A stretch of 64,000 nt of DNA, from the NCBI RefSeq assembly GCF_009914755.1, contig NC_060947.1; one strand, given 5' to 3'. Positions 29,291 through 51,884 of this stretch are shown here, piece by piece. This DNA is from the human T2T-CHM13v2.0 reference genome, Homo sapiens. Every line of letters begins with the position of its first letter. The stretch's first letter is position 1. Position numbers and translations under genes: made by a program. The notes under the pieces were generated by a model. That model saw only the letters and a list, made by a program, of their open reading frames with translations. It did no database searches and was not told the DNA's origin.

Positions 29291-30052
29291 GGTGATATTA
29301 CGGTAGTGGTTAAGTCTAGCTAATGTATTGGGTTGTTCATAATGTTCATATTCTGAGAGCCAGGTATGTAAGATCTCAAGAACTAAACTAACTTTAATTA
29401 AATAATTTGTTTTGTTAGATGTGTGACAGCACATTAAAATAATGTAATTGCTTCTATTGCTAAGTTTTGTTCAGTTTACAGGAGTACTTCCGTGTGGTGC
29501 GCATTTACTCGTGTTGATGGATTTTCGAGGTAAAAGTAATAATATTACCAGTCATTAGTTCATTATGCAGATTAAATGAGTAGAATTCAATAAAAGCTCT
29601 TAGTGTGCTGCCTGAAATGTCAGTGAAAACTCAGGAAATGTTAGTAATTGTCATTATCATGATTGTCATTACCAGGCTTAATGGCATGAATTTTCCCTGA
29701 TTTACAGCTTAGGAAGCTTGAAACTTGCAGACATTGTTAAATGTCACAGGACACGTAAGTGGTAGGAGGTAAGTTCACTTTAATTTAAAAAAATTGTATG
29801 AAAAGTTTATTGAAAGATACGACTTGCTTATTCTAATATTTGAGACAATGCTCAACTATATAAAGAGGAAAGTTTGTAGTCCATCCCCATACCCTGACTC
29901 AACCATTACAAAAACCCCCAACTTGTCCCTCCACACTGTTGTCCTTGCTAACACAATCATCTACTAACTCCCATATGCACATGGGAGGCTTTTTTCCCCT
30001 TATTTGTTTGTGCAAATATGAGCTCATCATACAAAAGCAGTTTTCTGCATTG

Positions 30053-30342: not shown

Positions 30343-31599
30343 CTGCAATTTGTTTTTCTTGCTTAAAAAAGATAAAATAGGTTTCTCCCCAGATCAGTGG
30401 GGGAGATTTTATGGTTTGCATTTTATACATCAACTCTCTAACCCATATGGAATTTATTTTGGTAAATGCTAGAGAGGTGAGGTTTTTCACTTTCCTTTTT
30501 TTTTGTAATATGAAATTTGTCCTGGCAACATTTGAGTTTTCGGTTTTGTTACAGTGATCCTCAGGTCACTTCTTAAACTAGATGTTCAATTGCTTTAATT
30601 ATTTAGCTATACAGTGCCACTTGGTACTCATTCAATAAATATTTATTGGTGTCAATAGTCTGTCATCATTAAGCAAAAAATAATAATAATACTCATCATC
30701 ATGGGACTTGCATTCTAAGTGCAGGGAGAGGGCAGAGATGTAAGCACTGTTGGGAAGTCATAAAATATAAAGGTTGAGGGCGAAAATACACATCCAGGTT
30801 AAAGGGGTTCTGGAGTTCTGGTGTGGGGACCGGTTGCAAAACTAAAGTGGTCAAGAAGGTCTTCAATGAGAAGGTGTTTTCTGAAGAAACTGCTAGAATA
30901 TATGAAGGATGTGAGAAAGGCATCATAGAAACTTACATAGAAGAACAGACCTAAGGAACATCCTGTGAGAATGCCGTAATATAGAAGAGCGGCTGGTCAG
31001 TTCTAGGAACATCAGGGAGGCCAGTGTGGCTACAGCGCTGTGACCCAGGAAGAGTCTTTAGGGATGAAATCAGAGAGATAATGTAGGGCTTTGGAAGTTA
31101 TTACAGTGACCGGCTTTTAATCCAAGATCAATAGGGGAGCTACTGAGGTTTGGAGCCACAGTGTATGTCATTTTCTGACTTACCAGTTAAAATGGTTATT
31201 TTGAATATATTTTTAGAAAGCATGCCTATAGGATTTCCTGATGAATAAGATGTCCATTTATTGAAATGAGGAGATTTCCATTTCAAGAAAAATGTGGTAT
31301 TGGTTAGGAGATCAGTTAAACTTGGTATTATTGTTAGACATACAAATGGAGACGCTGAGTAGGCAATTATGTTCTCTGGAGGTCAGAAAGGAGGTCTAAA
31401 CTGGAAATATAAACTTAGATGTTATTAGTATACAGATTGTACATAACACCATTAGACTGGAAATATTCATTTAGGGAGTATGTGCATGTCCATAAAGCAA
31501 AGAGGAACTTAGACACAAGGAAGAGAAGAACCAGCTAAAGGGACTGCATAGGAACCAGTGACTTAAGCAGAAAACTCAGAAAATTGTGCCTAGGTAGCC

Positions 31600-32018
31600 G
31601 ATATGGTTTGGATCTGCGTCCCCACCCAAATCTCAAGTTGAATTGTAGTCCCCAGTGTTGGAGGTGGGACCTGGTGGGAGGTGGTTGGATCATGGGGGTG
31701 GAATTCTCATGAAGGTTTAGCACCATTCCCTTAGTGCTGTTCTTGTGATAGTGAGTGAGTTCTCATGAGATCTGGTTGTTAAAAAGTGTGCAGCACCTCC
31801 CTTTTGGCTTTCTCTTGGTCCTGCTCCTGACATGTAAGATGACTTCTCCTGCTTTGCCTCTTGCCATGAGTTAAAGTTCCCTGAGGCCTTGCCGGAAGCA
31901 GATGCTGCCATGCTTCCTGTACAGCCTGCAGAACTATGAGCCAATTAAACCTCTTTTCTTTATAAATTACCCAAGGTTAGGTTGTTTCTTTACAGTAGTG
32001 TGAGAACGGACTAATACA
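31600..32018 (+). mobile_element. MST-type MaLR solo LTR inserted in L2 remnant
   Basis: gatatggtttggatctgcgtccccacccaaatctc...gagaacggactaataca. Confidence 0.9.
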
Positions 32019-32069
32019 GAGGCCAACTGAATAAAGTGTTCACAGGAGGAGAGAGTAACCTACTGTAGC

Positions 32070-36548: not shown

Positions 36549-37359
36549 TATCTCAAAGCCAATTTATAGTCTTGTGTGCACTTGTACAAACACAATAGAT
36601 GAACAGCATGGGCATGGCTATTATTATTAATTTGTGAGTAAGTGGTAGGGAGGAGGTCCAGGGAAGATTGTCTGGAAATAATGACATCTACGCTGCAGAT
36701 GTATGGAGGAACAGACGTTATCCTGGTGATTGGGATGCAGTGTGGGAGAAGGGTATCCCAGGCAGAGGAGATAACTTGTGTAATGTCAGGGGTGGGTGAG
36801 TAAGAGAGGATGGTATGCTCGCAGGACTCCTTCCTGCTCTGACCTTTGCCCTGACACTTCATGTTCCTGGTTCTCCATCGCCTCTCCTGAGCATCATTTT
36901 CTCTCCCACTACTCATGCTAAGCACTGTGCAAAGTTCAGTTCCTGGCCCAGTGATATTCTCCTTTTACTACTTTTGAAAAATTTTAAAAATGCCATTACA
37001 TAAAATATCATCCCTCCCAGGACCCCCGCGGTATGAAACTCCAGCTGAGTGGCAGTTCTTGCCTACAGCATTTACATTTGCACAGCCCAGCTTCAGCTCA
37101 ACCCTGAGATGCCAAAATGACACCCTTCACCTTTCCTTCCAAATTGTTGTCTAGATTCTGTATTTTAAAAAATATTCTCATCATCAATAAGTGACCTGGT
37201 CCTAAAACCTGGAGTGATCTCTGACTTCTCCTGCTACCAAACACCTTGTCAGGAATCAGGGCCAAACAGTGTTATTGTATACATCCTCAATTGTTTATTT
37301 TTCTTGAAATTCTAAGCAACCTTCGTCTCTCCCCATTCTGTGAGCATCTCTCTCCAGCT

Positions 37360-37620
37360 CCAATGACCAGTGGAGATTCTGTGTCAGGGCTCCAACCCCA
37401 GATTTCCCCTTCACATTGCCCTAGTAGAGGTTCTTCATGAGGGATCCAACCCTGCAGCATACTTCTGCCTGAACATCCAGGCATTTCCATACATCTTCTG
37501 AAATCTAGGCAGAGCCTCCCAAGCCCAAGCCTCAACTCTTACCCTCAGTGCATCTCCAGGCTTAACACCATGTGGAAGCCACCGAAGCTTGAAGCCACCA
37601 AGGCTTGAAGCTTGTACCCT
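37360..37620. mobile_element. THE1/MST internal fragment
   Basis: ccagtggagattctgtgtcagggctccaaccccagatttcccc...catccaggcatttccatacatcttctgaaatctaggcagag. Confidence 0.65.
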
Positions 37621-38277
37621 CATGTTAGTCTTAGATTATAGTATCCTGCAGGTAAATACTCAGAACAACTTCCAGCACTTGAATATCCACTCCTTCCCCC
37701 ACCCACATACTGGCAGAATTCATGTTGGGAGACTACATTTACTATGAACACACACCCCTGATTTGAAACAAGACTAGGATACATGGTAAAGAATGTTTAT
37801 TCACTAAAGTTTTGACAGACTGAAGGCCATTATTTCAGATTGGAGATAGGAAACTTAAAAGAACTACATGGACATTGGGTAAAAGAACATGGGTTGAAAT
37901 TTGCCTGGCAGTAGCCCAAAAGTAAATGGTCTTCGAGGTGCATGTGAAGGAACTGTAGGAGGGAAATGGGATAATTCACATCTCCACCAATAATTACATG
38001 TAGCCACACTAGCTTGGGGGATTTGAGGTGAGACATCTAAAATACTAAGTCATGGTGAGGGCTGGAAGACAAAAGAATGAATCACTTCATAGGAATGGCT
38101 GTGGGGAAGGGCTTGAAGGAATCATCCTCTGACTTCCATGTGAACCATGAACATTAAACATGGAGAAATGAGGAGCGGCGGCAGATCGGTTTGGGATGCA
38201 TCTTCAGGGGATGCTGAAACAACAACAGCATTTGGTTTCCTCTACATCCCTGTCACCCCTCCCCCACAAGCCCAGGG

Positions 38278-38404
38278 ATTGGTCAGCAGTGGTGCTTCGT
38301 GATGTCAAAGCCACCCTAGGACTGCCATTGGCTGGGACACTGCCTGTATGATCAAACAAAGCTCAAGGGTGTGGCTTTGCCTTGTCACCAGGAGGGTATA
38401 TATA
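38278..38404 (+). promoter_or_regulatory. SPANXN1 proximal promoter: inverted CCAAT boxes (38278, 38327), CRE-like TGATGTCA (38300-38307), TATATATA (38397-38404)
   Basis: Motifs read directly; TATA lies 114 nt upstream of the ATG; function inferred. Confidence 0.6.
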
Positions 38405-38510
38405 GGGAGGGCAAGAGCTCTGGGACATCCTCCTGGGAAGCTTCAATACAGCTGTGCAAGTCTGGAGTCTACAAGAGCCTACTATAGACATTCTACAACC
38501 AACCAGAATC

Positions 38511-38585
38511 ATGGAACAGCCCACTTCAAGCATCAATGGGGAGAAGAGGAAGAGCCCCTGTGAATCCAACAATGAAAATGATGAG
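38511..38585 (+). CDS. SPANXN1: SPANX family member N1, coding exon 1 (MEQPTSSINGEKRKSPCESNNENDE)
   Basis: ATG in context aatcATGG; 25 codons followed by phase-0 donor GAG|GTAAGA; peptide matches my recollection of human SPANXN1. Confidence 0.92.
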
Positions 38586-38592
38586 GTAAGAT

Positions 38593-39038
38593 TGTTAGGT
38601 TTTGAAGGGAAGGTGAGGGTGAAAGAAAGACACACAGAGAAGGGACGGCTCAAACAGCAACACAGGAATATTGCAGACACCTGTGGAAGTGGGAGACCCG
38701 CTTAATGCCAGAGCCCACCGCCGCTTACAGCCTGGGGTGCTTGTAGGTAGGGGTGGGAGGGGCCTGGGCAGTATGGCTTGCTGCCCGGCAGGATATTGAT
38801 AAGATGTTTTTATGATCAGGCTGTTTGGTCCTTTTTCCAGTGGGATGTCATTGTGGTGTTTCTTGGAACTTTGCCCAGCAAGATACCATAGGAAAGTTTC
38901 TTTAGTTGGACCTTTGTCCGTCTTGTGTTACGATGATTAGGCAAGATTTTTCTCAGCCTGAACCCCCGTGGAATGTTTCACTTTGATCAAGGTCTGAAAA
39001 ATAGCAGGGTGCTTACTAAATGGTGGTTTGGACTCACA
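38593..39038 (-). repeat. Proviral 3' LTR
   Basis: tgttaggttttgaagg...ttggactcaca; adjacent minus-strand polypurine tract aaagtagaaggcaagaa at 39039-39055. Confidence 0.92.
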
Positions 39039-39083
39039 TTCTTGCCTTCTACTTTAGTATAAAAGGAAGAGGGGCATTGTTGA

Positions 39084-40500
39084 TTATCTGGCTGCTTCCT
39101 GCCGAATAGGGGAGCTGTAATCAGGGTTTGGGTTTTGAAGCAGTGGGTGTTGGACTTCAGAGTTGTTTTCCTGGAGGCACTGGTACCGGACTTGGCAGAG
39201 GAGAAGGATGGTATCAATGTGTTGCTGGGTGGCTGCCTGGACAGGGGAGTTTAGCCTTCGGGAGATAAAGCAGGATATGAAGGTGAGTATACATCGGCCA
39301 AATGTACTATCAGGAGGAGGAAGATTAACGGCCCTAAGAAAGGGACCACCTGCTATCCCAGTGCTGAGTGCATCAGAGATGCTTAGTTCTGCTAACACTA
39401 GAATGAGATGTACAGCCTGCTTAGTGTGTGTGGAGGAAGATGAGACAGAAGCTACTAAAGGAACCTGGATGGTCTGCTTGTTAGGCAAAATGTTAATGTT
39501 TAGATTAACAAAAAAGTTGTAGATTATGGCGGTTAACGAAAGTTGTAGGTTATGGTGGCAAGCCATGAGAAGGTGGGGGTTGAATTCTCCACAAACACTT
39601 TGTTTTAACTTTTATATTCCTCCAAGTTCAATAGCTGCCAGCAAGGGTAGCCCCACTGAAGGCCTGATAGGAAATGTTGGTGGTGGAGGAGGTGAAGGCT
39701 GCTTGGTTTTGGAGAGAGAGGGGGAAATGGGTTTTTGTAACTAATAGCCACTGTGGTCCTTACAGGGCAGAAGGATACAGGTTGCAGTTGAGGGAATTGT
39801 TTGTGCATGTTTTCCAGGGAGCGCCCTTGAGTTGGATACATGAAGAGTGGCTCTAGCCAAGAGGGGAGGCGTTGGTAAGAGGTATTTTATGGAATCAGAG
39901 TTGTAACATGTTTAGTTAAGAGGCTATGAGGTGAAGGAGGGTGACAGCCCTGTGTGTGATGGTGTGGGTGGATTTAATGGATTGGGGGGAAAGGTGATTA
40001 GCCGAGCAAGATTATAAACAGGATTTGGGAATGAATTGGTCCAGTAGGTGAGATGCAGGTTTATTTTCGACCAGGTTTATGTGGCCAGGTTGACAGGAAG
40101 GGATGTGAACTGCTGGATTTGTGTGGACAAACAAGTTTAACAGTTGGAAGTAAAAGGGGAGTGTGACTGATTTAATGGGCAATGTGTGAGGCTGATGAAG
40201 GGGGCTCAACTGCTAGAGGTTGGGGGTGGGGACTTAAGAGTATCCCACAGACAAAGAGGACAAAGGAGAAAAAGGAGATTTGAGTAGGAGTGAAATTTTG
40301 GAAGGTGCCCTAAAGTCATACCTCCTGCGTTAGTGTGAGAAATTGGCATAGACTATCCAGGGACATAGGGAAGGGAAACCAGGAAAGATCTGAAACAAAG
40401 TAGGAGGTAAAAGATTGGAAATTGGCGACGGAGAGTGTTATGGGCTAGGGTGTTCTGGATTGGCAAATTCTGGAATTCTTGTTAAGTACAGTGAGGCTGG
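39084..40500 (-). pseudogene. ERV env remnant
   Basis: ORF 39084-39566 has a degenerate SU/TM cleavage site (HTKQ), a fusion peptide ending ALSTGIAG, and a membrane-anchor/tail-like 'TFGRCILTFISCFISRRLNS'; 5' limit approximate. Confidence 0.75.
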
Positions 40501-40559
40501 TCCTGTGAGGGAAGGAGAATAATTTGGGGGTGAACAAATTTCTAGATGTGGATCTGGTG

Positions 40560-43500
40560 CTCTTTTTAGTTTGAAATGGTGCATTCAGTGTGGAAAGGAT
40601 GTTAGCTTTGGCGCTGTGGGAGTAGTTAGGATAACCTGGTGGGAACCCCTCCACTTAGGTTGGAGAGGGAGGAGGAGGAGTCTGTGATTCAGACCCAGTC
40701 CCCTGGTTGTAGGGACAGGGAGGAGTGTTTTGAGGATGGACTTTTAGGCTGGGTCAAGTAAGCATTTGTGTACTGTCTTATTAGATGTTGGGTGAGGTGT
40801 AACGCCGGCCAAGTATTCCATATAGAAGGGGGAGAAAATACGGGGATATTTTGGAGGATAAATGGAGCATTTGTACATGAGTTTAAATGGGCTTAGGCTG
40901 AGGAGCTTTTGGGAAATGACTCATAAATGCATGAGGAACAATGGGAGAAGTGAAGTCCAGGCCATTTTAACCGTTAGGGAGAGTTTGGTTAGTTGTTTTT
41001 TATAAAATTTTTCCTGAAGATTCGGAGTGGTAAGGAATATGGAAAGCCCATTTAATGTTTAGAGCCTTTGCCAGCTGTTGGCTGAACTGTGAAACAAATT
41101 GACCCATTGTCTGACTGGATGCAAGAGCGAGTTTAAACCGGTGGATAATATGGGTGAAGAGAATAGACGTGATGGTGTGTGCCTTTTTGGTGGTGGTGGG
41201 AAAAACTTTTATTCATCCAGAGAATGTATCTACTATTGTGAGGTATAGGAATCACTTTCTGGGGGGCATGTGAGTGATGTTGATTTGCTAGTCCTGCCCT
41301 GGTAAGTGTCCTCAGGCCTCGTGTGTTGGAAAGGAGGTGGTTTGATAGCTTCCTGAGGGGAAGTTTGAGTGCAAAGGGAACATGCCTTAGTAATATCTTT
41401 GAGATGGGCAGCCATGGAGGAAGAATATATGTATGTTTTTAAAAGCTGGAGTAGGGGCAGTAACCGGCATGGAAATGGTTGTGCACATATGAAAGTTCAG
41501 AAGGTTTTTTAAACTTGGACAAGACACTTTTATCATTGAGGTGGAACCATTTTTTCCTGAATGGCGCCAGTCCGGGCAAGTGGGGTTTGTTCCTGCTGGG
41601 TATATACAGGGTGTATGCTGGAAAAAAATGAGCAATAACGATGGGGTTTTAAGGGCTGCCTGCCAGGCTGCCAAATTTATTGAAAGGTTTTTCTCGGTTT
41701 TGGCATCTGTAACCTTTCGGTGTCCCTTGCAATGGATAATGGTGGCCTTTAGTGGTAGTTTATCTACCCCCAGCAGCTTATGTATAAGTTTGCCATTTCT
41801 TGTGGAGGTTCCTTTTGTAGTTAGGAAACCCTGTTCCTGCCAGATGAAGGCATGAGACTGTAGGACATGGTATGCATATTTGGAATGGGTGTAAATGTTG
41901 ACCCTCTTTCCCTTTGCTAGGGTGAGGGCCCTGGTTAGGGCAACTAGCTTTGCCTGTTGAGAGGCAGCATGGGGTGGGAGAACATTGGATTCTAGGAGTT
42001 TATTTTCAGCAATGATGGAATAGCCAGCTGCTGGACATGGCTCCCTAAAAGAGCTTCCATTAACTAACCGTGTATGTGTTCCCTGCAAAGAGGCATCTGA
42101 AATGTGTTGGAAGGGGGAGGAGAGGGAGTCTAAGAGGTCCAGACAGGAGTGAGAGAGCTTAGAGTCGGAAGTGTTTACAGGGAGGAGGGTGGCTGGGTTG
42201 AGAGTTTTATATCTCTGGAAGGTGATTAGAGGGTTACCTATGAATAAGGCATGTACCTGCTGTAAGCAGGATGGTGGGAGGCATAGAAGAAATTGATGGT
42301 TTATGAGGTCCTGTAGGTAATGGGAAGATGCAATAGTAATGTGTTGGTAAAGAGGGAGTTTCTGTGCCTCTAAGGCCAGTGATGTGGCCACACCCAAGAT
42401 TTTTAGTCAGAGTGACCAGCATTGGATGACAGAGTCCAGTTGTTTTGAGAGATGTGCAATGGCTTCTGGGGCGTCGCCGTATGTTTGACAGAGTAGTCCA
42501 AGGACAAGGCCTTGGTCGGAATGTACATACAAAGTAAAGGGCTTGGTGAGGTTGGGCAGTCCTGGTGCCAGGGCCATTAAAAGGGCATTTTTAAGTTTTT
42601 TGTTTGTTTGTTTTGGTTTTGGTTTTTTGTTTTGTTTTGTTTTGTTTTAGTGGGAATTGATGGGGTAAGCTGGGTTTGGGGATTTTAGGATGGGCCCATG
42701 TGAGGCCATGTAGAGTGGCTTGGCCAGCAAGTCAAAGTTGGAAATTCATGGCCAAAAGTATCCCACAAGGCCCAAGAAGGAGAGGAGGTCCTTTTTTTGT
42801 GTGGGGAAGGGGCATGTCCCAAATTAGCTCCTTTCATTGGGTTGGGATGGCTCGAGAATTAGGGGTTAGGACAAACCCATGTTTGTGCTACCTGAGATTT
42901 TGTGGGTTAGGCCCAATCTCCTCGATTATGGAAGCAGTTTAAAACCTGAGTGGTGTGTTGAATGGACAGGTTAAGGAAAGGGCTACAGAGAAGGAGGTCA
43001 TTGACATATTGGAGGAGGGCACTAGGAAAAAGAGGAAGTTCAGCTAGGTCCTTGATGAGGGCCTGTCTGAATAGATGGGGGCTATCCTGGAACCCCTGTG
43101 GGAGTATAATCCATGTTAGTTGGGTGGACATGTGAGTATTAGGATTTGGCCAAGTTAGAACAAAGAGACTTTGGTAAGCTGGGTTTAAGGGAAGAGTGAA
43201 ATAGGCCTCTTTTAGCTCCAACACAGAGGAGTGTGTGGTAGATGTAGGAGTATGAGAGAGTAGAGTATATGGGTTGCAGACCACCAGATGGATTGGTACC
43301 ACTGCCTGGTTAACAACTTGGAGATCCTGGAAAAAGGGGTAAGTCTTGTCTGTCTTCTGGAAAGCCAGAATAGGGGTGTTGTGGGGAGAGTTGACGGGCT
43401 TGAGAATTTGAGCTTGCAAAAGTTTACAAATAGGATTGAGGCCCCTTAAACCGGCTGGATTAAGTGGATATTGAGACTGATGAAGGAAAATGGAGGGGTT

Positions 43501-43600
43501 CTGGAGGGTTATTTTAACTGGGATGTGATGTGTGGCTATTGTGGGTTTAGAAACATTCCAAAGTTTAGAATTAACAGAAGGTAACAGGGTGGATAATGAG
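40560..43600 (-). pseudogene. ERV pol remnant (RT, RNase H, integrase) with frameshifts and stops
   Basis: LPQGFQDSPHLF and LLQYVNDLLL (YVDD decayed) in ORF 42907-43419; RNase H motifs SQQAKLVALTRAL, VNIYTHSKYAY, IIHCKGH in 41387-42397; integrase CSLC; (TTTTG)n at ~42595-42648. Confidence 0.92.
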
Positions 43601-43629
43601 GATGAGTAGGGGGAGAGGGAAGCGTTTGG

Positions 43630-43990
43630 GTGTCAGAGTAAAATAAAAGGGGTAGAATTGTAGGAGCCACATTGCATGGAGGTCTGGGATTTACTTAATA
43701 TGTCCCACCCCAAGATAGGGGTAGGGGACTGAGGGATAACCAGGAAAGAGTGGGTGAAGGGGGCTGTTGAATAGGTTGCATAATAAAGGACGAGTCTGTG
43801 CCTAGAGGGGATTCTATTGACTCTCACAATAGAGATTGAAAAACGGAAAAAGGGTCTAGAATATTTGGGTAAAACCGAGTAACTAGTTGTCCTATTGAGC
43901 ATCCAATAGGAAAGACATGGGCTTACTAGAGACTGACAGAATTACCCTGGCTTCCGAGGTGGTGATGGCAGTACGGGCGGTGGACTCTAG
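43630..43990 (-). pseudogene. ERV protease remnant
   Basis: 'MSFLLDA' (decayed FLLDTG) and 'HSFLVIPQSPTPILGWDILSK' in adjacent frames. Confidence 0.85.
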
Positions 43991-44036
43991 GCCCCGTCTG
44001 TCTTCAGGTACGGGTGGTGAAGCAGGATGAAGAGTT

Positions 44037-45270
44037 TCACTGAGCACAGTCTGACTTCCAGTGTTGCTTGATACCACAGATGGGGCAAGGTTTCCAGAAT
44101 GTCCTGGGATTAGGGTAGGCTTTTTCCCAGTGTCCGTGTTGGACGCACTTATAACAGGCTCCTGGAGTTGACTGTCGCCAAGTTGAGGAATTCTGTATGC
44201 CTTGGGAACCCTGTTGAGTGGCAGCCACCAGCATTTGGTATTTCGCCTGGTCCTTCTTTAGGTTTGAGGTTTTTGGTTCTTCCTCTCTATTCTTAAAGAC
44301 CTTAAAGGCCACTTTGATTAAGTCTCTTTGGGAGGTTTGAGGGCCATCCTTCATTTTTTAATGTTTTTTTTCAAATGTCTGGGGCTGACTGGGAGATAAA
44401 GTGTAAATGGAGGTCGATTTTGCCCTTATTGTTATTAGGGCTTAAGGTGGCATATTTAGTTGTGACCTTTGGAAGGCAGGAGAGGAAAAGATCAGGGGCG
44501 ATATTATATATGCCAGCTAGAAGGCATGATATGATATGGCCTGGTTTCTGTCTGTCTACAGAAGTTGCCTGACAATTCCAATTGGGGTCAGTTCTGGGGA
44601 CAGCTAGGGTCCCTATTGGGTTGTGAGTAGCATCTTTTTGTTGGAGGGTGTTCTCATGGGCCTGGGTGCCAATAAAGATGTGTTCCCTGTCCTCCAGGGT
44701 GAGGGTAGAGGAGAGGATGACATATACGTCATGCCAGGTAAGGTCATAAGATTTAGGGAAGTACAGAAATTTCTTGCAGAAGGAGGTAGGATCCATTGAA
44801 AAGGAGTCAAGTCTCTTTTCAATATGGGAGAAGTCAGCTAGGGAACTTGAATTCAGATTGTGTCTTCAGGCCTCGCAACCTCCTGCAAGGGAAGGACTTT
44901 GGAAGGCCTTTGGGCATGTGCCTGGTTTCTAGCGAAAGGGGGTTGGGTGTGAGACCTGGTTTGAGGTGGAGAAGGAAGGGGGATGGAGGGTGACAGTAAG
45001 GGGGTGGAGGAGCCGGATCCGAAGGAGAAGGTGGAGGGAATGGGAGTGGGCAGGAGGCAGAGGAAGGGGTTTGTTGTCCAGGTTGAAATTCAGAGGAGGA
45101 AGGCTTGTCCGGAGGAGGAGGCATTTTGGGGGGTTTCTCCTTGAGGAGGAAGATTTGAAAAGGTGAACAAGATTGGCAGAGAGGGAGAGTGAGCTGTGAA
45201 CGAAGATAAGCAAAGCACTTCAGATTATTTACCCTTGTGTTGGAGAAAGTTTTTCAGATGATGTTGAATT
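44037..45270 (-). pseudogene. ERV gag remnant
   Basis: PPPPPY late domain; capsid-like YDLTWHDVYVIL and HFISQSAPDI; two zinc knuckles CYKCVQHGHWEKAY and CPICGIKQHWKSDC. Confidence 0.9.
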
Positions 45271-45304
45271 TGGAAGTTGAATGTTTTGTTTTTTTGGAAG
45301 AGGG

Positions 45305-45429
45305 GAGTGAATACTCTGGATGGGAGTGACTACCCCTAAGGAAAGTGAGTACCCTGGAAGAGAGTGAATATCCCAGAGCGGAGTGAGTTCTCCAGAGGGA
45401 AGTGAATACACCAGAGGAAAGTGAGTACT
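45305..45429. repeat. 19-bp tandem repeat (~6.5 copies) in the proviral leader
   Basis: Units (g/a)agtga.t.c...... start at 45305, 45324, 45343, 45362, 45381, 45400 and 45419. Confidence 0.85.
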
Positions 45430-45935
45430 TGATTCCGCCTGGAAGAAGGGACCTGGAGAGTCGGGGCAGCCCCGTACTATTCATGCTCCCCAGAGGCCGG
45501 AGCGGCCAGAGTGGCAAGCATTCTGAGGCTGTCCCCTGAGAAGGGAGGCTGCGGTCACCTGGTGACTGGGGAGACCTCTCACCCAGCACTTGATTGTTTT
45601 TTGGAGAACAGGCAGAAATAGAGAGGAATCCAGAAAGGAGGAAGAGGGAGACTCACCCACTAATTGACGCCCAGTGTTGGATGTGATGTCCAGAAATGGG
45701 GGTGATCCTTGTTGCAGCAGCGCAGAAAGGGGAAGGAAGGGAAAAGAAAAAGGTCGAGAGTTTGATCAATATCTGGAGGTTATCCCAGGTCTGGAGAAGA
45801 CTAGAGTATAAGGGGAATGGAACTAGGAACAGGGAGATCACAGGATCTGGAAGCAGGCCCCGGTCTAGTTTGTGCTGCTTTTCGCTTTCTGGGTTGCAGC
45901 AGAAAACTTACCCATTAGAACCCAATCACCAACCA

Positions 45936-45953
45936 CTCCAGGTTTTGACACCA
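45936..45953 (-). promoter_or_regulatory. Primer-binding site, best match tRNA-Phe
   Basis: TGGTGTCAAAACCTGGAG vs Phe PBS TGGTGCCGAAACCCGGGA: 13/18 identical, all mismatches transitions; 3 nt from the 5' LTR. Confidence 0.7.
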
Positions 45954-45956
45954 AAA

Positions 45957-46406
45957 TGTCAGGTTTTGAAGAGAAGGCGAGGATGAAAGAAAGACACACA
46001 GAGATGGGGCAGCTCAAACAGCAACACAGGAATATTGCAGAAACTTGTGGAAGTGGGGGAACAGCTTAATGCCAGATCCCACCACTGCTTACAGCCTGGG
46101 GTACTTACAGGTATGGGTGGGAGGGATCTGGGCAGTATGGCTTGCTGCCAGGCAGGATATTGATAAGATGTTCTTATGATCAGGTGGTTTGGCCCTTTTT
46201 CTGGTGGAATATCATTGTGGTGTTCCTTAGAACTTTGCCAAGCAAGATATGATAGGGATGTTTCTTTAGTTGGGCCTTTGTCCGCCTTGTGGACAGGTGG
46301 TTAGGCAGGATGTTTCTCACGGCCTGAACCCCCATGGGATGTTTCACTTTGACCAAGGTCTGCAAAATGGCAAAGAACTTACAAAATGGTGCACTTTGGA
46401 CTAACA
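45957..46406 (-). repeat. Proviral 5' LTR
   Basis: tgtcaggttttgaagag...ttggactaaca, colinear with 38593-39038. Confidence 0.92.
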
Positions 46407-46594
46407 GGTGACCCTACCCATGCTCCTCTTCTTCTTCCCCATAGATCCCTACCCTATGATTCAACCTTGTTCTTCTCTGGCACACACCCCTTCCTCCACC
46501 TGCATTCCTTCTCATAAAGCCCCCCTTGCTATCCAGTCTCTATCCTATTCACCCAAAATAATGTCTTTCTGGCCTCTCCCTGTTTTCTTAACAG

Positions 46595-46738
46595 ATGCAG
46601 GAGACACCAAACAGGGACTTAGCCCCCGAACCGAGTTTGAAAAAGATGAAAACGTCAGAATATTCAACAGTATTAGCGTTTTGCTACAGGAAAGCTAAGA
46701 AAATACATTCAAATCAACTGGAGAATGACCAGTCCTGA
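46595..46738 (+). CDS. SPANXN1: SPANXN1 coding exon 2 (MQETPNRDLAPEPSLKKMKTSEYSTVLAFCYRKAKKIHSNQLENDQS*)
   Basis: Polypyrimidine tract and acceptor ttttcttaacAG|ATG; in frame with exon 1, giving 72 aa; TGA at 46736-46738. Confidence 0.92.
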   Translation: MQETPNRDLAPEPSLKKMKTSEYSTVLAFCYRKAKKIHSNQLENDQS

Positions 46739-46774
46739 GAGAACTCCATCAATCCAGTCCAAGAGGAGGAGGAC

Positions 46775-47037
46775 GAAGGCCTAGACTCAGCTGAAGGATC
46801 TTCAAAGCAGGATGAAGACCTAGACTTACCTGAAGGCCTAGACTCAGCTGAAGGATCTTCAAAGCAGGATGAAGACCTAGACTTACCTGAAGGATCTTCA
46901 AAGCAGAATGAAGACCTAGGCTTACCTGAAGGATCTTCAAAGCAGGATGAAGACCTAGACTTACCTGAAGGATCTTCACAGGAGGATAAAGACGTAGAAT
47001 TACCTGAAGGATCTTCACAGGAGGATGAAGACCTAGA
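46775..47037 (+). repeat. SPANX-N 39-bp minisatellite (EGSSKQDEDLDLP-like units), downstream of the stop codon
   Basis: About 6 copies of gaaggatcttcaaagcaggatgaagacctagacttacct; includes an exact 57-bp duplication (46775-46831 and 46832-46888). Confidence 0.92.
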
Positions 47038-47544
47038 GAAAAAGCGATCATCTAGGTCAAGAAATGAAATAGAAATTTCAGAAATTACAGAAATTCTCCA
47101 AGGAAGGAGCCAGATAAATAAATATTCTGATTTCATTTTCCTCCTTCTCCAGTGATCTGCAGGGACCTACCATTCACTAAAACTAACCCGAAGCCATAGA
47201 ACAAGACAGCTTATTAATACAGTCCATGGTTTATATGAGTAGATTTTTAGCAGCACAAAGTAGAGTGGAGAATGGATCTGGTGAAGCAAATGGACGATAT
47301 ATTGAGAACACTGAACTCAGAGAAGCAAAAGCCTCAGGAGAGATCATACTGTCTTTCTTCAACTCTCTGATATGGTGTCATGTGGAATCAGGCCAGACTT
47401 ACACTTTTTGAGTGCCATACCTATGATTAGTAGGACCACAGTAGGGAACTTAGGGGAAAGTGGCATAAACTCCCTTAGGCAGTTGATGTGGATGAGTTTG
47501 TCCTGGAAAAGCTGTTTACAAAATGATCAACTGTAATTTTGCTC

Positions 47545-48471
<927 letters not shown>

Positions 48472-49177
48472 AGCTCTTTCCTGTGGGTGTGAATATCTCA
48501 CCATGCCTGTTACTCTCTACATCAAAATGTCTAACACTTGCTACCATATTTCCCTGGTGTAAAGGAGAAGGTTGTTGGGTTTTTTAAGCTTGATGTCATT
48601 TGAAAAATAAGAGTTATGTTATATAAAAACTTGAACAGTGGCAAGGATGTGTGGTAGCTTGACTGCTAATTTCCTGAAAGTTCAGATTTGAACTTGTTTG
48701 CTGTGGTATCATCTGGAAATAGCATGGAGCCTGACACACAACAGGCAATTAGTAAATACTTGCTGAATGATGGCACAAGCATGGACAGTGAAGTGTAGCA
48801 TGGTGATGAGAAAAAAACACTGATAGTGACTCATATTATATAAGGTTCTAGCCCCAGCTGTGGTTATAACTAAAAATATAATCTTGAGCTAGTTAAAGAA
48901 ACACCCTTTAAATGTGATGTCCAAGTACCTAATTCCATTAATTTAGATGTAATTGCTAAATGTTTGGGTCTATGTAGCACATTAATCTAAGTGCAAAAAC
49001 ATCCAAAATATCCAAGATAATGGAATAAGTCTCTCTAGTTGAAAGTTTAATACAATGCTGAGGCTGATATCTACTCAAAAAGTTGAGGATGTTATTTACT
49101 CAAAAAAATTTCTAGGCATAGATAGTAGATATAATGATCTTAATTATATTATTATTTTCATTTTACACAACCTTAAT

Positions 49178-49715
49178 TTTTTTCTCGAGTTTTATTTTAG
49201 CTACGGGGGTACAAGTGCTGGTTTGTTACATGAATATATTGCACTCAGATAGTGATTCTAGTACCCAATAGGTAGTTTTTTCACCCGTGCCCTCCTCCCT
49301 CCCTCCCCCATCTAGTAGTTTCCAGTGTCTATTGTTTCTACATTTATGTCCATTTGTGCTATTTAATCCCTGCTTGTAAATGAGAACATCTGGTATTTGG
49401 TTTTCTGTTACTACATTAATTCACTTAGGATTATGGCCTCCAACTCCATCCATGTTGTTGCAAAGGACATAATTCCATTGTTTTTTATGGCTGCATATAA
49501 TTCCGTGGTGTATATGTACCACATTTTATTTATCCAATCTACCTATTTATGGGCACCCAGGTTGATCCCATGCATTTGCTATTGTGAATAGTGTGGTGGT
49601 GAGCACACGAGTGCATGTGTCTTTTGATATAATGATCTATTTTCCTTTGAGTATATACCCAGTAATGGGATTACTGGGTCAAATGGTAGCTCTATTTTAA
49701 GTTCTTTGAGAAACA
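49178..49715 (-). mobile_element. L1PA/PB 3' end fragment
   Basis: Reverse L1 3' UTR (atggcctccaactccatccatgttgttgcaaaggac). Confidence 0.85.
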
Positions 49716-49780
49716 GCCTAATTTTTAAAAGACCTCAAAAGATAAATTTACTTTAGTAAACTTTAAATCAATGCACATTT

Positions 49781-50090
49781 TGGCCAGGCGCAGTGGCTAA
49801 CGCCTGTAATTCCAGCACTTTGGGAGGCTGGGGTGGGCAGATTACTTGAGGTCAGGAGTTTGAGACCAGCCTGGGCAACATGGCGAAACCCCATCTCTAC
49901 CTAAAATACAAAAATAATAGCCGGGCATGGTAGTGTGTGCCTGTGGTCTCCACTACTCAGGATGATGAGGCAGGAGAATTGAGTCGAAAGGGAGGAGGTT
50001 GCAGTGAGCCAAGAGTGAGCCACTGCACTCCAGCCTGGGTAACAGAGTGAGACCTTGTCTCAAAAAATAAATAAATAAATAAACAAATAA
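49781..50090 (+). mobile_element. Alu
   Basis: Dimeric Alu with (TAAA)n tail; TSD aatgcacattt. Confidence 0.92.
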
Positions 50091-50495
50091 AATAATGCAC
50101 ATTTAAATGAAGAATATATCTTTGCCTTGAAATGCTTCACTAAATGTGAATAACACTACTAATAATACTAATGATATCTAACATTTTCAAATAATTATGT
50201 CTAACATTTATTTAGCATTTCCTAAATATCAAGCACTTCATATGCATAAGGTAATTTAACCCTCATAAAAAGCTTATGATTCTGGTAGTTTTGCTATCAG
50301 CATCCTTAGGGAATGAGAAATGGAGGCCACATAGCCAGCGGTGAAATAGAGATTCAAACCCAGACAGTCTTGAATACAGAGGCTGAATTGGTATCTATTC
50401 ACTATAAATATTATATCTTGACTTTTCCTCAGAAAGCTCATGGTAAATGCACATGTTTTCTGCCATATAAATTCAAAGATACCATGATTTCATAC

Positions 50496-50578
50496 TGATA
50501 TGGTCTGGTTCTGTATCCTTACCCACATCTAATCTTGAATTGTAATCCAAATTGTAATACCCACATGTTGGGGGAGGG
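50496..50578 (+). mobile_element. 5' fragment of a THE1/MST LTR
   Basis: tgatatggtctggttctgtatccttacccacatctaatcttgaattgtaatcc resembles the MaLR LTR start at 31600. Confidence 0.7.
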
Positions 50579-50580
50579 AG

Positions 50581-51316
50581 TATACATAAAGAGGGTGGGG
50601 CCCCGGGCTATACTACTGCTTGACATCAACATGGAAGAGGTAACTGGCAAACCGGAGTTGCCTAACACAGCTATGGATCAACCAACACCAGACATGCAAC
50701 AACCAACCACAGACACCAAAGGAAAGAAGAATGAATATCCCATATGAACTCAAGTCCAGAGACAGTGGCAAGGTCAGATCAAGCTGCCCATGTTCTTTCT
50801 CTGTCCCCTTAACTATATTACCACTTCCAAGACTCCTACCTTAACCTTATGTGGTATGTATCCCCTCCTCAGCCCATAACCAGGTTCAGTAAACCCTCCT
50901 TCCTATGCATTTCACATTCTCTTCTCCTAAATCACTGCCTTATGGGAAGAGGACCTGACAGCACCCTGTTTCCCTACCAGGTGCAGGAGATAATCATAAA
51001 AGTAAAAGTAGCCAGTAGTTTTTCAAGGGTGTTCAAGAGAAAAATCTCTAAGAACTACCATCTCTTGAAGCAATCCTACATCAGCCAAAGGCCAAAACTA
51101 TTCGGTCATTATTACAGGCCCAATGAGAAAGTGAATCAAAATCAGGGAGACTAAGACTAAGAAAACCTGGGGTTTTCTTCGAGTGAAGTGTGCATCCTGT
51201 GACTGCAGAGTGAAGAACAGACCTCTCAAAAAGTTCTTCTGTCTCCAGAGGTATGGCTGCTGAGAAATGACTAACAATGTAGAGGTTAAATCTTCCACAG
51301 TGATGATTAAAATAAA
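50581..51316 (+). pseudogene. Diverged SPANX-N-like two-exon pseudogene (exon 1 ends 50772; intron 50773-50980; exon 2 starts 50981)
   Basis: TATACATAAA at 50581; ATG 50694 'MQQPTTDTKGKK'; donor AAG|GTCAGA; acceptor ctgtttccctaccAG|GTGCAGGAG; exon 2 VQE...LFGHYYRPNEKVNQNQGD*; AATAAA at 51311; +1 frameshift near 50730. Confidence 0.72.
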
Positions 51317-51574
51317 ATCAACAAGTTGTAAAAGCCCCTAAGTTTTCAGTTGAATTGTGTCATCCATATGTGTATGTGTCTCTGCAAGTTATCTGATGGT
51401 GGAGAAAGAGAAAGGAAGCAAGTGGTGTGAGAAGGGAGGCAAGAGGGGTTCTGCAGGGTTAGGGGCCAAACTGGCAGGTCCACAGCCAGATATTGAGAAT
51501 AAAGACTGGGTCAAGACTATACATGAAAGACAATTGCTAATCCAAATGCAAGAAGGAAAATGGCATGGTATTGC

Positions 51575-51577
<3 letters not shown>

Positions 51578-51620
<43 letters not shown>
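51578..51620. repeat. (TG)n microsatellite
   Basis: About 21 perfect TG units. Confidence 0.97.
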
Positions 51621-51622
<2 letters not shown>

Positions 51623-51884
51623 ATAGTGGCATTGGTAGTAGATGTCAGGGTCTAGATCACCAAAACCCAAATGAGGTTAAATGCCAGCTATCTGCAATTT
51701 TCTGGACTCTTGCTCAACCTGCTCTCTTCCCATCTCCAATCTCAGTTGAAGAGGTATTTTTCCTTCAGTCTGAGGCAAATCCCATTTGTTACCACCTCTT
51801 CAGGGAATTTAATTCATAAATGTTCTATCACCTGTTTCTTCAATCTTGTCTACCAGCTTCTTATTCCTTCTTGTCAACATTTGT

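What the first reader, a model, noticed from the sequence alone, without database searches (positions are those of the whole stretch)
50581..51316. Hidden, deeply diverged SPANX-N-like paralog 4 kb downstream of SPANXN1
Seen in sequence: every structural element of SPANXN1 has a colinear counterpart here. TATA context is ggagtatacataaagaggg vs gggtatatatagggaggg. TATA-to-ATG spacing is 113 nt (50581 to 50694) vs 114 nt. The N-terminus is MQQPTTDTKGKK vs MEQPTSSINGEK. Removing one base near 50730 gives GKKMNIPYELKSRDSGK, which aligns with GEKRKSPCESNNENDE and makes the exon 78 nt with a phase-0 donor, as in SPANXN1. Exon 2 opens gtgcaggaga vs atgcaggaga and contains LFGHYYRPNEKVNQNQGD*D*EN vs VLAFCYRKAKKIHSNQLENDQS*EN. 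AATAAA follows at 51311. Inference: this is an ancient tandem SPANX paralog, now a pseudogene here, that may be intact in other mammals. I do not recognise it among the named members (N1-N5, A-D) but cannot check annotation.
Basis: partly seen in the sequence, partly recalled or inferred. Interest (0 to 1): 0.8.

Follow-up and report, generated by a model that had tools for sequence, protein, structure and literature searches.

The report
Decayed SPANX/CXorf51-type gene beside SPANXN1
Just downstream of SPANXN1 lies the unannotated, broken remains of an old two-exon testis-type gene related to both SPANX and CXorf51, and it seems to have lost its promoter when the SPANXN1 copy arrived at this site.

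Summary
Window 50580-51595 is colinear with a whole SPANX-type gene: TATA, 5' leader, exon 1, a 208-nt intron, acceptor, poly(A) block and about 220 nt of 3' flank. Identity is about 60%. Scores lie 8-10 SD above shuffles, and the best matches in the window fall exactly on the SPANXN1 parts.

The two SPANXN1 matches stop at the termini of its intronic ERV, so this copy shows the uninterrupted (ERV-free) form of the site.

The interpretation needs correcting. This is not a tandem offshoot of SPANXN1. It is one deep lineage of an X-linked family of about 1-kb units, 14 of which were aligned here: SPANXN2-5, CXorf51A/B and eight apparently unannotated units including this one. At protein level it is closer to CXorf51, and Pfam SPAN-X does not detect it.

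SPANXN1 sits in a 13-kb duplicon copied from a SPANXN3-like source. The duplicon ends at 50579, directly before the relic's TATA, so the family's conserved CCAAT/GT-box promoter is missing.

One frameshift breaks exon 1. Every other signal is intact.

The superfamily is already published (Hansen 2008). Verdict: a new member of a known kind.

The parts
37621..50579 (+). Context: the SPANXN1 duplicon. It is a copy of a SPANXN3-like segment, and its distal end abuts the relic.
   Evidence: It is colinear with chrX:141827615-141808437 (minus strand) at 88-94% identity in five blocks ending at 50579. N2, N3, N4 and N5 all begin their homology with N1 at 37621, yet they share 230-2971 nt more with each other upstream of that point.
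38593..46406 (+). Context: the ERV with two LTRs inside the SPANXN1 intron. The relic has no insertion at the matching point.
   Evidence: LTR pair 38593-38892 / 45957-46256 (88%) and 38947-39025 / 46313-46391 (84%). The relic's two matches end at 38592 and begin at 46405. Kouprina 2007 describes an ~8 kb intron holding an ERV with two LTRs (PMC1831492, passages).
50487..50579 (+). First ~93 nt of an interspersed LTR-type repeat (MaLR THE1/MST-like; name from memory). It is the last piece of the SPANXN1 duplicon and stands where the relic's upstream promoter should be.
   Evidence: All 39 non-self genome matches scored (842 first-look candidates, many chromosomes) cover only 50480-50579, at 86-92% identity. 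A full copy lies in the window at 31599-32019. The same element is full length at SPANXN3 (N3rc 29484-29862) but cut here.
50581..50590 (+). TATA box (TATACATAAA), the only promoter element retained.
   Evidence: It aligns with the TATA of SPANXN1-5 and of 5 of the 9 other aligned units (CXorf51A/B, locus C, X149b, X151); in X119 it aligns one base offset. The ~100 nt upstream that the family conserves (ATTGG box, CCAAT box, GGGTGTGGC) occurs in the window only at 38283-38397.
50631..50772 (+). Exon 1 coding remnant, 142 nt. In-frame ATGs lie at 50631 (the position CXorf51 uses), 50673 and 50694 (the position SPANX-N uses). A frameshift lies near 50722-50731, giving a TGA at 50745-50747.
   Evidence: Translations in three frames. 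Alignments. BLASTP to CXorf51 exon 1: 14/33 identities, E 1e-6. The 142 nt equal 47 codons plus 1 base.
50773..50980 (+). Intron of 208 nt, GT...AG, phase 0, with no ERV.
   Evidence: It aligns with the 7 nt after the SPANXN1 donor plus the last 190 nt of its intron, and with the introns of 9 other units. GT and AG are intact.
50981..51154 (+). Exon 2 reading frame: 57 codons open in phase 0, followed by TAA.
   Evidence: The frame stays open in 139 of 5000 dinucleotide shuffles; the other two frames carry 6 and 3 stops. It is 72% identical over 180 nt to locus B. BLASTP to CXorf51 exon 2: 8/20 identities, E 6e-4.
51155..51335 (+). 3' UTR with AATAAA at 51311-51316, inside the family's conserved poly(A) block.
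   Evidence: GATGATTAAAATAAAATCA here against GATGATTACAATAAAATCA in SPANXN2-5. N5 gives 92% identity over 25 nt. AATAAA sits in the same column in 7 of 10 units.
51371..51595 (+). Conserved 3' flank beyond the poly(A) site. Homology ends at a (TG)21 run at 51578-51620.
   Evidence: 65-71% identity to the sequence just downstream of SPANXN2, N3, N4 and N5, E 1e-12 to 1.6e-18. Alignment with locus B and N2-N5. (TG)n found by TRF.

Best explanation
Window 50580-51595 (T2T chrX:143,518,580-143,519,595, plus strand) is a pseudogene. It is the remains of a compact two-exon, TATA-driven gene of about 1 kb.

It belongs to the old X-linked family that includes SPANX and CXorf51, and, according to the literature, VCX/Y, CSAG and mouse Cypt. 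It is a separate deep lineage of that family, not a derivative of SPANXN1.

It was already at this site when a 13-kb copy of a SPANXN3-like segment carrying SPANXN1 was placed next to it. The distal junction of that copy lies at 50579/50580. Everything upstream of the relic's TATA, meaning the conserved ATTGG/CCAAT/GT-box promoter, is now replaced by a repeat fragment from the incoming segment.

One frameshift in exon 1 also breaks the reading frame.

What is shown: the homology, the boundaries and the lesions. What is inferred: that loss of the promoter silenced the gene, that this happened before the frameshift, and that the locus now has no function.
For: Homology across the whole unit:
- Promoter and exon 1, and the intron, score z = 8.1 and 10.3 against shuffles. 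The best hits in 64 kb on both strands are the matching SPANXN1 parts.
- The poly(A) block and 3' flank match SPANXN2-5 at E 1e-12 to 1.6e-18.
- There is a continuous 60% alignment over 606 nt to the CXorf51 unit (E 6e-29) and 66.5% over 206 nt of flank.

Independent check: the two SPANXN1 matches end at 38592 and start at 46405. These are the outer ends of the ERV LTRs at 38593 and 46406.

Not an interspersed repeat:
- A genome search with 50580-51330 finds only itself and locus B.
- Searches with family units find matches only on X and Y.
- Only 50480-50579 is dispersed across many chromosomes.

Family placement: a 14-row alignment and tree, plus BLASTP to CXorf51.

The locus I call CXorf51A/B encodes 44+64 = 108 aa, with 19 K, 12 R, 11 S and 10 T, and is an inverted pair 99.8% identical. 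This fits the published 108-aa Xq27.3 protein and the palindrome P17 gene pair (PMC8481210 section 3; PMC8327919 passages).

Duplicon boundary.

Promoter loss: the upstream ~100 nt of five family units each match 38283-38397 at 70-73%; their only other hits in the window are 17-48-nt matches at E 0.26-0.90.

Lesions: one frameshift. TATA, ATG, GT, AG and AATAAA are all intact and exon 2 is open. Among the ten non-SPANX-N units aligned, only this one and CXorf51A/B show that state.
Against: - No expression data were available, so 'silent' is an inference. The TATA box, both splice sites and the poly(A) signal are intact.
- A 71-codon spliced frame exists from ATG 50731 (14 codons) into exon 2 (57 codons).
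- The open exon 2 (p about 0.03 by shuffling) could mean present-day constraint rather than recent death.
- The direction of the SPANXN1/N3 duplication rests on two truncated ends. Two later deletions at an ancestral N1 locus would give the same picture.
- Tree support around the relic is weak (38-68%), so its nearest relative is not settled.
- Pfam finds no family in either exon.
- A search of 1.84 billion representative proteins found only a naive ORF of this same DNA.
Confidence: 0.8

Rival explanations
1. One reading: an ancient local tandem duplicate of the SPANX-N gene, so that SPANXN1 and the relic have been neighbours since the duplication. A later deletion would have removed the DNA between the repeat at 50487-50579 and the relic's TATA.
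For: Same strand, 3.45 kb apart, and tandem duplication is the usual origin of paralogues. A random breakpoint landing on one of the few ~1-kb family units would be an odd coincidence. The units known so far sum to roughly 20-30 kb in tens of Mb of Xq.
Against: - Both ends of the N1 segment are truncated relative to other SPANX-N loci.
- SPANX-N's sister in the tree is the 139.935 Mb unit (97%), not the relic.
- Nothing beyond 50579 is colinear with the SPANXN3 locus.
- No relic copy lies at N2-N5.
- Kouprina 2007 also takes N3 as the original locus (PMC1831492 section 19).
Confidence: 0.1
2. The unit is still a working gene, or a testis or tumour non-coding RNA. It would be transcribed from its TATA box, spliced and polyadenylated, and perhaps translated from ATG 50731 into a 71-aa protein.
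For: TATA, GT, AG and AATAAA are intact, a state otherwise seen only in CXorf51A/B among ten units. Exon 2 stays open in 2.8% of shuffles. The 14+57-codon frame exists.
Against: - The conserved upstream promoter is gone.
- Three upstream in-frame ATGs (50631, 50673, 50694) open a frame that ends at 50747, ahead of or overlapping ATG 50731.
- There is no RefSeq model in the supplied table.
- No related protein other than the naive ORF was found among 1.84 billion representatives.
Confidence: 0.07
3. The similarity is chance, low-complexity sequence, or due to a shared interspersed repeat.
For: Identity is only about 60%. The intron is pyrimidine-rich. A true repeat abuts the unit at 50487-50579. 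Exon 2 alone is not significantly similar to SPANXN1.
Against: - 0 of 150 shuffles reach either score.
- There are four colinear blocks in the right order.
- The alignment ends coincide with the ERV termini.
- E-values fall to 1e-18 (N5 flank), 6e-29 (CXorf51) and 6e-48 (locus B).
- The full-length repeat copy at 31599-32019 matches only 50497-50555.
- All relatives are on X or Y.
Confidence: 0.02

Closest known systems
SPANX-N genes (SPANXN1-N5; Pfam PF07458 SPAN-X)
   Same: - TATA at the same distance from the SPANX-type ATG.
- Exon 1 of the same length (79 against 78 nt), with a phase-0 donor at the same place.
- Homologous 3' end of the intron.
- The same poly(A) block and 3' flank.
   Different: - No ERV in the intron.
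- No 39-nt minisatellite: TRF finds none in 50400-51800, against 5.3 copies at 46831-47037.
- Exon 2 cannot be aligned at nucleotide level.
- No Pfam SPAN-X hit.
- It keeps an upstream ATG that SPANX-N has lost.
- Only 56-57% identical.
CXorf51A/B (108-aa disordered, testis-expressed protein; X palindrome P17)
   Same: - Continuous alignment from TATA through both exons (60% over 606 nt, E 6e-29) plus the flank.
- The same start codon position.
- Exon 1 gives 14/33 identities (E 1e-6) and the exon 2 C-terminal motif gives 8/20 (E 6e-4).
- Similar total length: 47 codons plus 1 base in exon 1, and 57 codons in exon 2, against 44+64.
   Different: - The tree does not join them. CXorf51 groups with the 149.77/149.78/151.50 Mb units at 98%.
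- The relic is frameshifted and lacks the promoter.
- It carries an in-frame 21-nt tandem duplication in exon 1.
- I found no paper linking CXorf51 to SPANX. The search 'CXorf51' + 'SPANX' found 6 papers (5 listed), of which I saw only titles and abstract starts, none about gene-family evolution. The CXorf51A paper contains no occurrence of 'SPANX'.
VCX/Y-SPANX-CSAG-Cypt shared-promoter superfamily (Hansen et al. 2008, Mol Reprod Dev 75:219)
   Same: - X-linked, small, fast-evolving germ-cell genes with a common promoter.
- The promoter block is the best-conserved part among the units aligned here (70-73% to SPANXN1 38283-38397).
- CXorf51-unit searches also hit Xp22.3 and chrY places that I take, by position and from memory, to be VCX/VCY.
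   Different: - The relic lacks the defining promoter apart from the TATA.
- I could not read Hansen 2008, which is not held. I know it only from its title and two passages in PMC8327908. I therefore cannot say whether it lists this locus or CXorf51.
Locus B (chrX:145,311,940-145,312,755, minus) and locus C (chrX:143,573,190-143,574,339, plus), further decayed units
   Same: These are the closest relatives by identity (61.4% and 60.5%). Locus B is 72% identical in exon 2 and 64% over 676 nt. Locus C is 63% over 713 nt.
   Different: Both are more decayed. Locus B has 3 stops in exon 2, and an L1-like fragment (identified by eye, from memory) stands where exon 1 should be. Locus C has lost the donor, the acceptor and AATAAA in the aligned columns.

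Membership tests
SPANX (Pfam PF07458 SPAN-X) | Protein matches the SPAN-X profile above the 22-bit cut-off. | tested here: not met
   No family at E <= 10 for exon 2 (57 aa), for exon 1 from ATG 50673 (23 aa) or for exon 1 from ATG 50631 (38 aa). SPANXN1 exons score 38.1 and 69.8 bits in the same call. A genome-wide PF07458 scan gives 21 matches at the 10 known SPANX loci plus one weak match elsewhere, and none here.
SPANX (gene structure) | Two exons, a phase-0 intron after about 26 codons, and TATA about 114 nt before the ATG. | tested here: met
Primate SPANX-N / SPANX-A-D | ERV or solo LTR in the intron, at the point 7 nt after the donor. | tested here: not met
   The relic intron is 208 nt and runs straight across the insertion point.
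Primate SPANX-N | 39-nt minisatellite in exon 2 (absent in human N4, per PMC1831492). | tested here: not met
   TRF finds none in 50400-51800. It finds 39 nt x 5.3 in SPANXN1.
VCX/Y-SPANX-CSAG-Cypt superfamily (Hansen 2008) | The shared promoter region upstream of the TATA. | tested here: not met
   Only the TATA remains. The upstream ~100 nt of five units match only SPANXN1's promoter in the window. 50487-50579 is a dispersed repeat. Descent from the family is shown instead by the rest of the unit.
VCX/Y-SPANX-CSAG-Cypt superfamily | Sex-chromosome-restricted copies. | tested here: met
   All matches to family-unit queries are on contigs C23 (X) and C24 (Y).
CXorf51 | Protein similarity over both exons and grouping with CXorf51A/B in a tree. 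| tested here: inconclusive
   BLASTP gives E 1e-6 and 6e-4 in pairwise comparison. The tree places CXorf51 with other units at 98%, and the relic's own nodes have 38-68% support.
Processed pseudogene / retrocopy | No intron, a poly(A) tail, and a location unrelated to the parent. | tested here: not met
   The intron, promoter TATA and 3' flank beyond the poly(A) site are all retained.

The most novel reading that the evidence does not exclude
The relic was a live, CXorf51-like testis gene until fairly recently in primate history. It was killed by its own relative: the duplicative arrival of the SPANXN1 segment removed its CCAAT/GT-box promoter at a junction a few bases before the TATA, and only one frameshift has accumulated since.

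If so, primates or other mammals without the SPANXN1 insertion should carry an intact, expressed orthologue that has no name in human.

The relic, CXorf51 and about 20 further X-linked units would also show that the VCX/SPANX/CSAG/Cypt superfamily is homologous over the whole 1-kb unit (promoter, intron, poly(A) site and 3' flank), not only in the promoter. That would give the uncharacterised CXorf51 a family.
Probability: 0.35. Interest if true: 0.5.

Novelty: new member of a known kind. Interest (0 to 1): 0.35.

Why it matters
- It adds an unannotated member to a fast-evolving family of X-linked germ-cell and cancer-testis genes.
- It shows that the human ancestor had several diverged SPANX-type lineages, not only the single SPANX-N gene proposed for the rodent/dog/primate ancestor (PMC1831492, section 19).
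- It ties the uncharacterised CXorf51 to SPANX through homology of non-coding parts, which protein searches miss.
- It pins the distal breakpoint of the SPANXN1 duplicon to a few bases. This gives a concrete, testable case of one family member disabling another by landing on its promoter.
- For annotation: this is a pseudogene, and a protein model should not be called here without RNA evidence.

Tried and rejected
- **Shuffle tests that timed out.** Two versions using many blastn runs timed out. I redid them with a Smith-Waterman aligner.
- **Pfam.** No family for any relic exon.
- **Representative-protein search.** Exhaustive phmmer of the 57-aa exon 2 against 1.84 billion representatives gave 1 hit, a 70-aa ORF starting inside this intron. 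That is a naive ORF call on the same DNA.
- **Repeat explanation.** The full-length LTR at 31599-32019 aligns only to 50497-50555.
- **Displaced promoter.** I looked for the relic's promoter left of the duplicon. Windows 36721-37620 show nothing above shuffles when compared with the SPANXN1 promoter (45/300, 199/300 and 283/300 shuffles do as well). The family promoters give no significant hit anywhere else in the window; the only others are 17-48 nt at E 0.26-0.90.
- **Exon 1 of locus B.** Nothing in the 10 kb upstream (135/200 and 193/200 shuffles do as well).
- **Second relic in the window.** None. All family-unit hits fall on SPANXN1 or the relic.
- **Hansen 2008.** Not held.
- **Further family members.** They are therefore not in the tree.
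- **ERV target-site duplication.** I looked by eye for one in SPANXN1 that the relic might show in single copy. The flanking bases (…AAGAT / GGTGA…) are too diverged to call.

Full report
**1.
A sensitive blastn of 50400-51500 against the whole window gives three non-self hits better than E 1e-5:
- 50573-50779 against 38391-38592 (61%);
- 50775-50990 against 46405-46604 (60%);
- 50497-50555 against 31600-31658, which is a repeat.

By Smith-Waterman against both strands of the rest of the window, the first two are the best matches anywhere. They score 29 and 30, against 16.6 +/- 1.5 and 16.5 +/- 1.3 for dinucleotide shuffles, and 0 of 150 shuffles reach either.

The targets are the SPANXN1 TATA-to-donor stretch, and the last 190 nt of its intron plus 10 nt of exon 2.

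**2. An independent check.**
The SPANXN1 intron holds an ERV whose LTRs run from 38593 and to 46406 (also described in PMC1831492, passages seen). The two alignments stop at 38592 and start at 46405. The relic's 208-nt intron therefore runs straight across the insertion point, and the relic represents the pre-insertion form of the gene. An aligner could not produce that by chance.

**3. The unit is longer than reported.**
SPANXN1 has lost the family's normal 3' end. This is a deletion relative to N2-N5, so the window alone hides part of the homology. Against SPANXN2-5 the relic also matches the following:
- the poly(A) block (51297-51321, 92% to N5);
- about 220 nt beyond it (51371-51594, 65-71%, E 1e-12 to 1.6e-18).

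The relic is thus a complete unit, 50580 to about 51595.

**4. What did not match.**
- The body of exon 2 and the 3' UTR have no significant nucleotide similarity to SPANXN1.
- Pfam SPAN-X finds nothing in either exon.
- A genome-wide scan with that profile finds only the ten known SPANX loci and one weak hit elsewhere.
- The relic has no 39-nt minisatellite.

**5. It is not a repeat.**
Only 50480-50579 is dispersed across the genome. All 39 non-self matches scored cover just that stretch, at 86-92% identity. It is the first ~93 nt of an LTR-type element; I recall it as MaLR THE1/MST, and no tool named it. A search with 50580-51330 finds only itself and one other X locus.

**6. A family appears.**
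That other locus (locus B, chrX:145.312 Mb, minus strand) is 64% identical from the acceptor to the (TG)n run. Its intron matches the SPANXN1 intron (score 32 against 14.4 +/- 1.7, 0 of 200 shuffles).

Using locus B, then two further units, as queries uncovers many places, all on X or Y.

I fetched seven regions holding eight more units and aligned ten units end to end. Most of them share a TATA, a 5' leader with an ATG, a donor, a short intron, an acceptor, exon 2, a poly(A) block and a 3' flank.

One inverted pair (chrX:145.069 and 145.074 Mb, 99.8% alike) has an intact 44+64 = 108-aa frame. This fits CXorf51A/B as published:
- 108 aa, Xq27.3 (PMC8481210 section 3);
- a testis-expressed pair in palindrome P17 (PMC8327919 passages).

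**7. Where the relic sits in the family.**
I built a tree of 14 rows: the relic, loci B and C, X119, CXorf51A/B, X149a/b, X151, X139 and SPANXN2-5. It used 1000 of 1542 columns.

Left out were N1 (it lacks the flank), SPANX-A/D, and the members that could not be fetched.

Results:
- SPANX-N joins X139 (97% bootstrap).
- CXorf51 joins the 149.77/149.78/151.50 Mb units (98%).
- The relic branches near the centre with 38-68% support.
- Identities are 61.4% to locus B, 61.0% to CXorf51, 60.5% to locus C and 56-57% to SPANX-N.

The relic keeps the upstream ATG (50631) that CXorf51 uses. Its exon 1 and exon 2 translations match CXorf51 by BLASTP (E 1e-6 and 6e-4).

Terminal branches are 0.26-0.43 substitutions per site. 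CXorf51-like proteins are reported across Eutheria (PMC8481210). I therefore infer that the lineages split around or before the eutherian radiation. This is an inference, not a dated result.

**8. State of the gene.**
- From ATG 50631 the frame reads 38 codons and stops at 50745-50747. The +1 frame then carries on to the donor, with residues that align with the CXorf51 exon 1 tail.
- Exon 1 is 142 nt, one base over 47 codons. One frameshift near 50722-50731 is the only break in the frame.
- Exon 2 is open for 57 codons in phase 0 (2.8% of shuffles; the other frames have 6 and 3 stops).
- Among the ten non-SPANX-N units, only the relic and CXorf51A/B keep TATA, ATG, GT, AG, AATAAA and an open exon 2.

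**9. Relation to SPANXN1.**
- Window 37621-50579 is 88-94% identical to the SPANXN3 locus, and the homology ends at 50579.
- The repeat at the end is full length at SPANXN3 but cut here after ~93 nt.
- N2-N5 all start their homology with N1 at 37621, yet share 230-2971 nt more with each other upstream.

SPANXN1 is therefore a derived 12,959-nt copy, truncated at both ends. This agrees with the published view that N3 is the original locus (PMC1831492 section 19).

The relic begins exactly at the distal junction. The ~100-nt promoter that five other units share with SPANXN1 (70-73% identity; ATTGG box, CCAAT box, GGGTGTGGC) is the best-conserved part of the family. It has no significant match in the window other than SPANXN1's own promoter at 38283-38397. 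It is also not detectable left of the duplicon.

The bases at the junction (GGGAGGGA) resemble both the repeat and the family's pre-TATA sequence. A microhomology-mediated join is therefore plausible, but not shown.

**10. Best reading.**
This is a promoter-less, frameshifted pseudogene of an old X-linked germ-cell gene family. It stood here before SPANXN1 arrived.

Its unusually good preservation suggests, but does not prove, that it was functional until the insertion removed its promoter. Why a SPANX-N copy landed on a distant relative's promoter is unexplained. The rival is an ancient tandem pair plus a later deletion, which I rate at about 0.1.

**11. Known or new.**
A common origin of VCX/Y, SPANX, CSAG and mouse Cypt, based on a shared promoter, was published by Hansen et al. 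2008. I saw that paper only as cited in PMC8327908; the paper itself is not held.

The kind is therefore known. The following may be new:
- this locus;
- its junction with the SPANXN1 duplicon;
- homology extending over the whole unit;
- the place of CXorf51 in the family.

I found no paper linking CXorf51 with SPANX (searches; the CXorf51A paper contains no occurrence of 'SPANX'). I could not check Hansen 2008, GENCODE or Dfam.

**12. Limits.**
- No other mammalian genome, no expression data and no repeat library were available.
- Part of the family could not be fetched.
- Gene names for loci outside the window rest on published descriptions, and on memory where I say so.

Noticed in passing
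T2T chrX:139,934,863-139,934,958 and 139,935,148-139,935,300 (+); L044:3864-3959 and 4149-4301: An intact two-exon frame of 32+51 codons with GT/AG intact, lying between the SPANX-A/D genes. It is the sister of SPANX-N in the tree (97%). Its exon 2 aligns to SPANXN1 exon 2 (65% over 291 nt) and gives a sub-threshold Pfam SPAN-X hit (E 0.039, 15 bits). The PF07458 genome scan missed it. In the alignment it lacks the family TATA and promoter. I do not know whether it is annotated.
   Followed up: partly
T2T chrX:143,573,190-143,574,339 (+), 41.5 kb beyond the window's end; L039:3191-4340: Locus C, another decayed unit of the same family. It is 63% identical over 713 nt to the relic and 66% over 835 nt to locus B. 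The supplied table lists no RefSeq gene within 100 kb after the window.
   Followed up: partly
T2T chrX:145,311,940-145,312,755 (-); L010:1038-1853: Locus B, the relic's closest relative. It has 3 stops in exon 2, and an L1-like fragment (identified by eye, from memory) lies directly upstream of the intron remnant. No exon 1 was found within 10 kb.
   Followed up: partly
window 46942-47205: SPANXN1 lacks the poly(A) block and 3' flank that N2-N5 share. This is a deletion equal to about 6.6 kb of the SPANXN3 locus. SPANXN1 ends instead at another AATAAA near 47117, in about 170 nt not shared with the other loci.
   Followed up: partly
window 38283-38397 and 51371-51595; the same parts in all units: The two best-conserved parts of the family are non-coding. 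One is the ~100-nt promoter (70-73% identity). The other is about 200 nt beyond the poly(A) site (65-79%, and detectable even in the Xp22.3 and chrY copies). The reason for conservation of the downstream flank is unknown.
   Followed up: no
window 50673-50714: An in-frame 21-nt tandem duplication in the relic's exon 1 (ATGGATCAACCAACACCAGAC / ATGCAACAACCAACCACAGAC). It gives the repeated peptide MDQPTPD / MQQPTTD, and it is absent from the other units in the alignment.
   Followed up: no
T2T chrX:52,081,142-52,083,144 (SPANXN5 locus; L031/L032): Both LTRs of the SPANXN1 ERV map to a single region of the SPANXN5 intron. N5 therefore carries a solo LTR, and its two exons lie about 0.6 kb apart.
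   Followed up: no
X and Y places listed: DNA searches with three family units hit at least 20 places on Xq24-q28, four on Xp22.3 and two on chrY. These include inverted pairs at 138.33/138.53 and 147.94/148.00 Mb. No autosomal match appeared. Most could not be fetched or named.
   Followed up: partly
protein P0001: The public representative library holds a 70-aa 'protein' that is simply the ORF from an ATG inside the relic's intron (50942) through exon 2.
   Followed up: no
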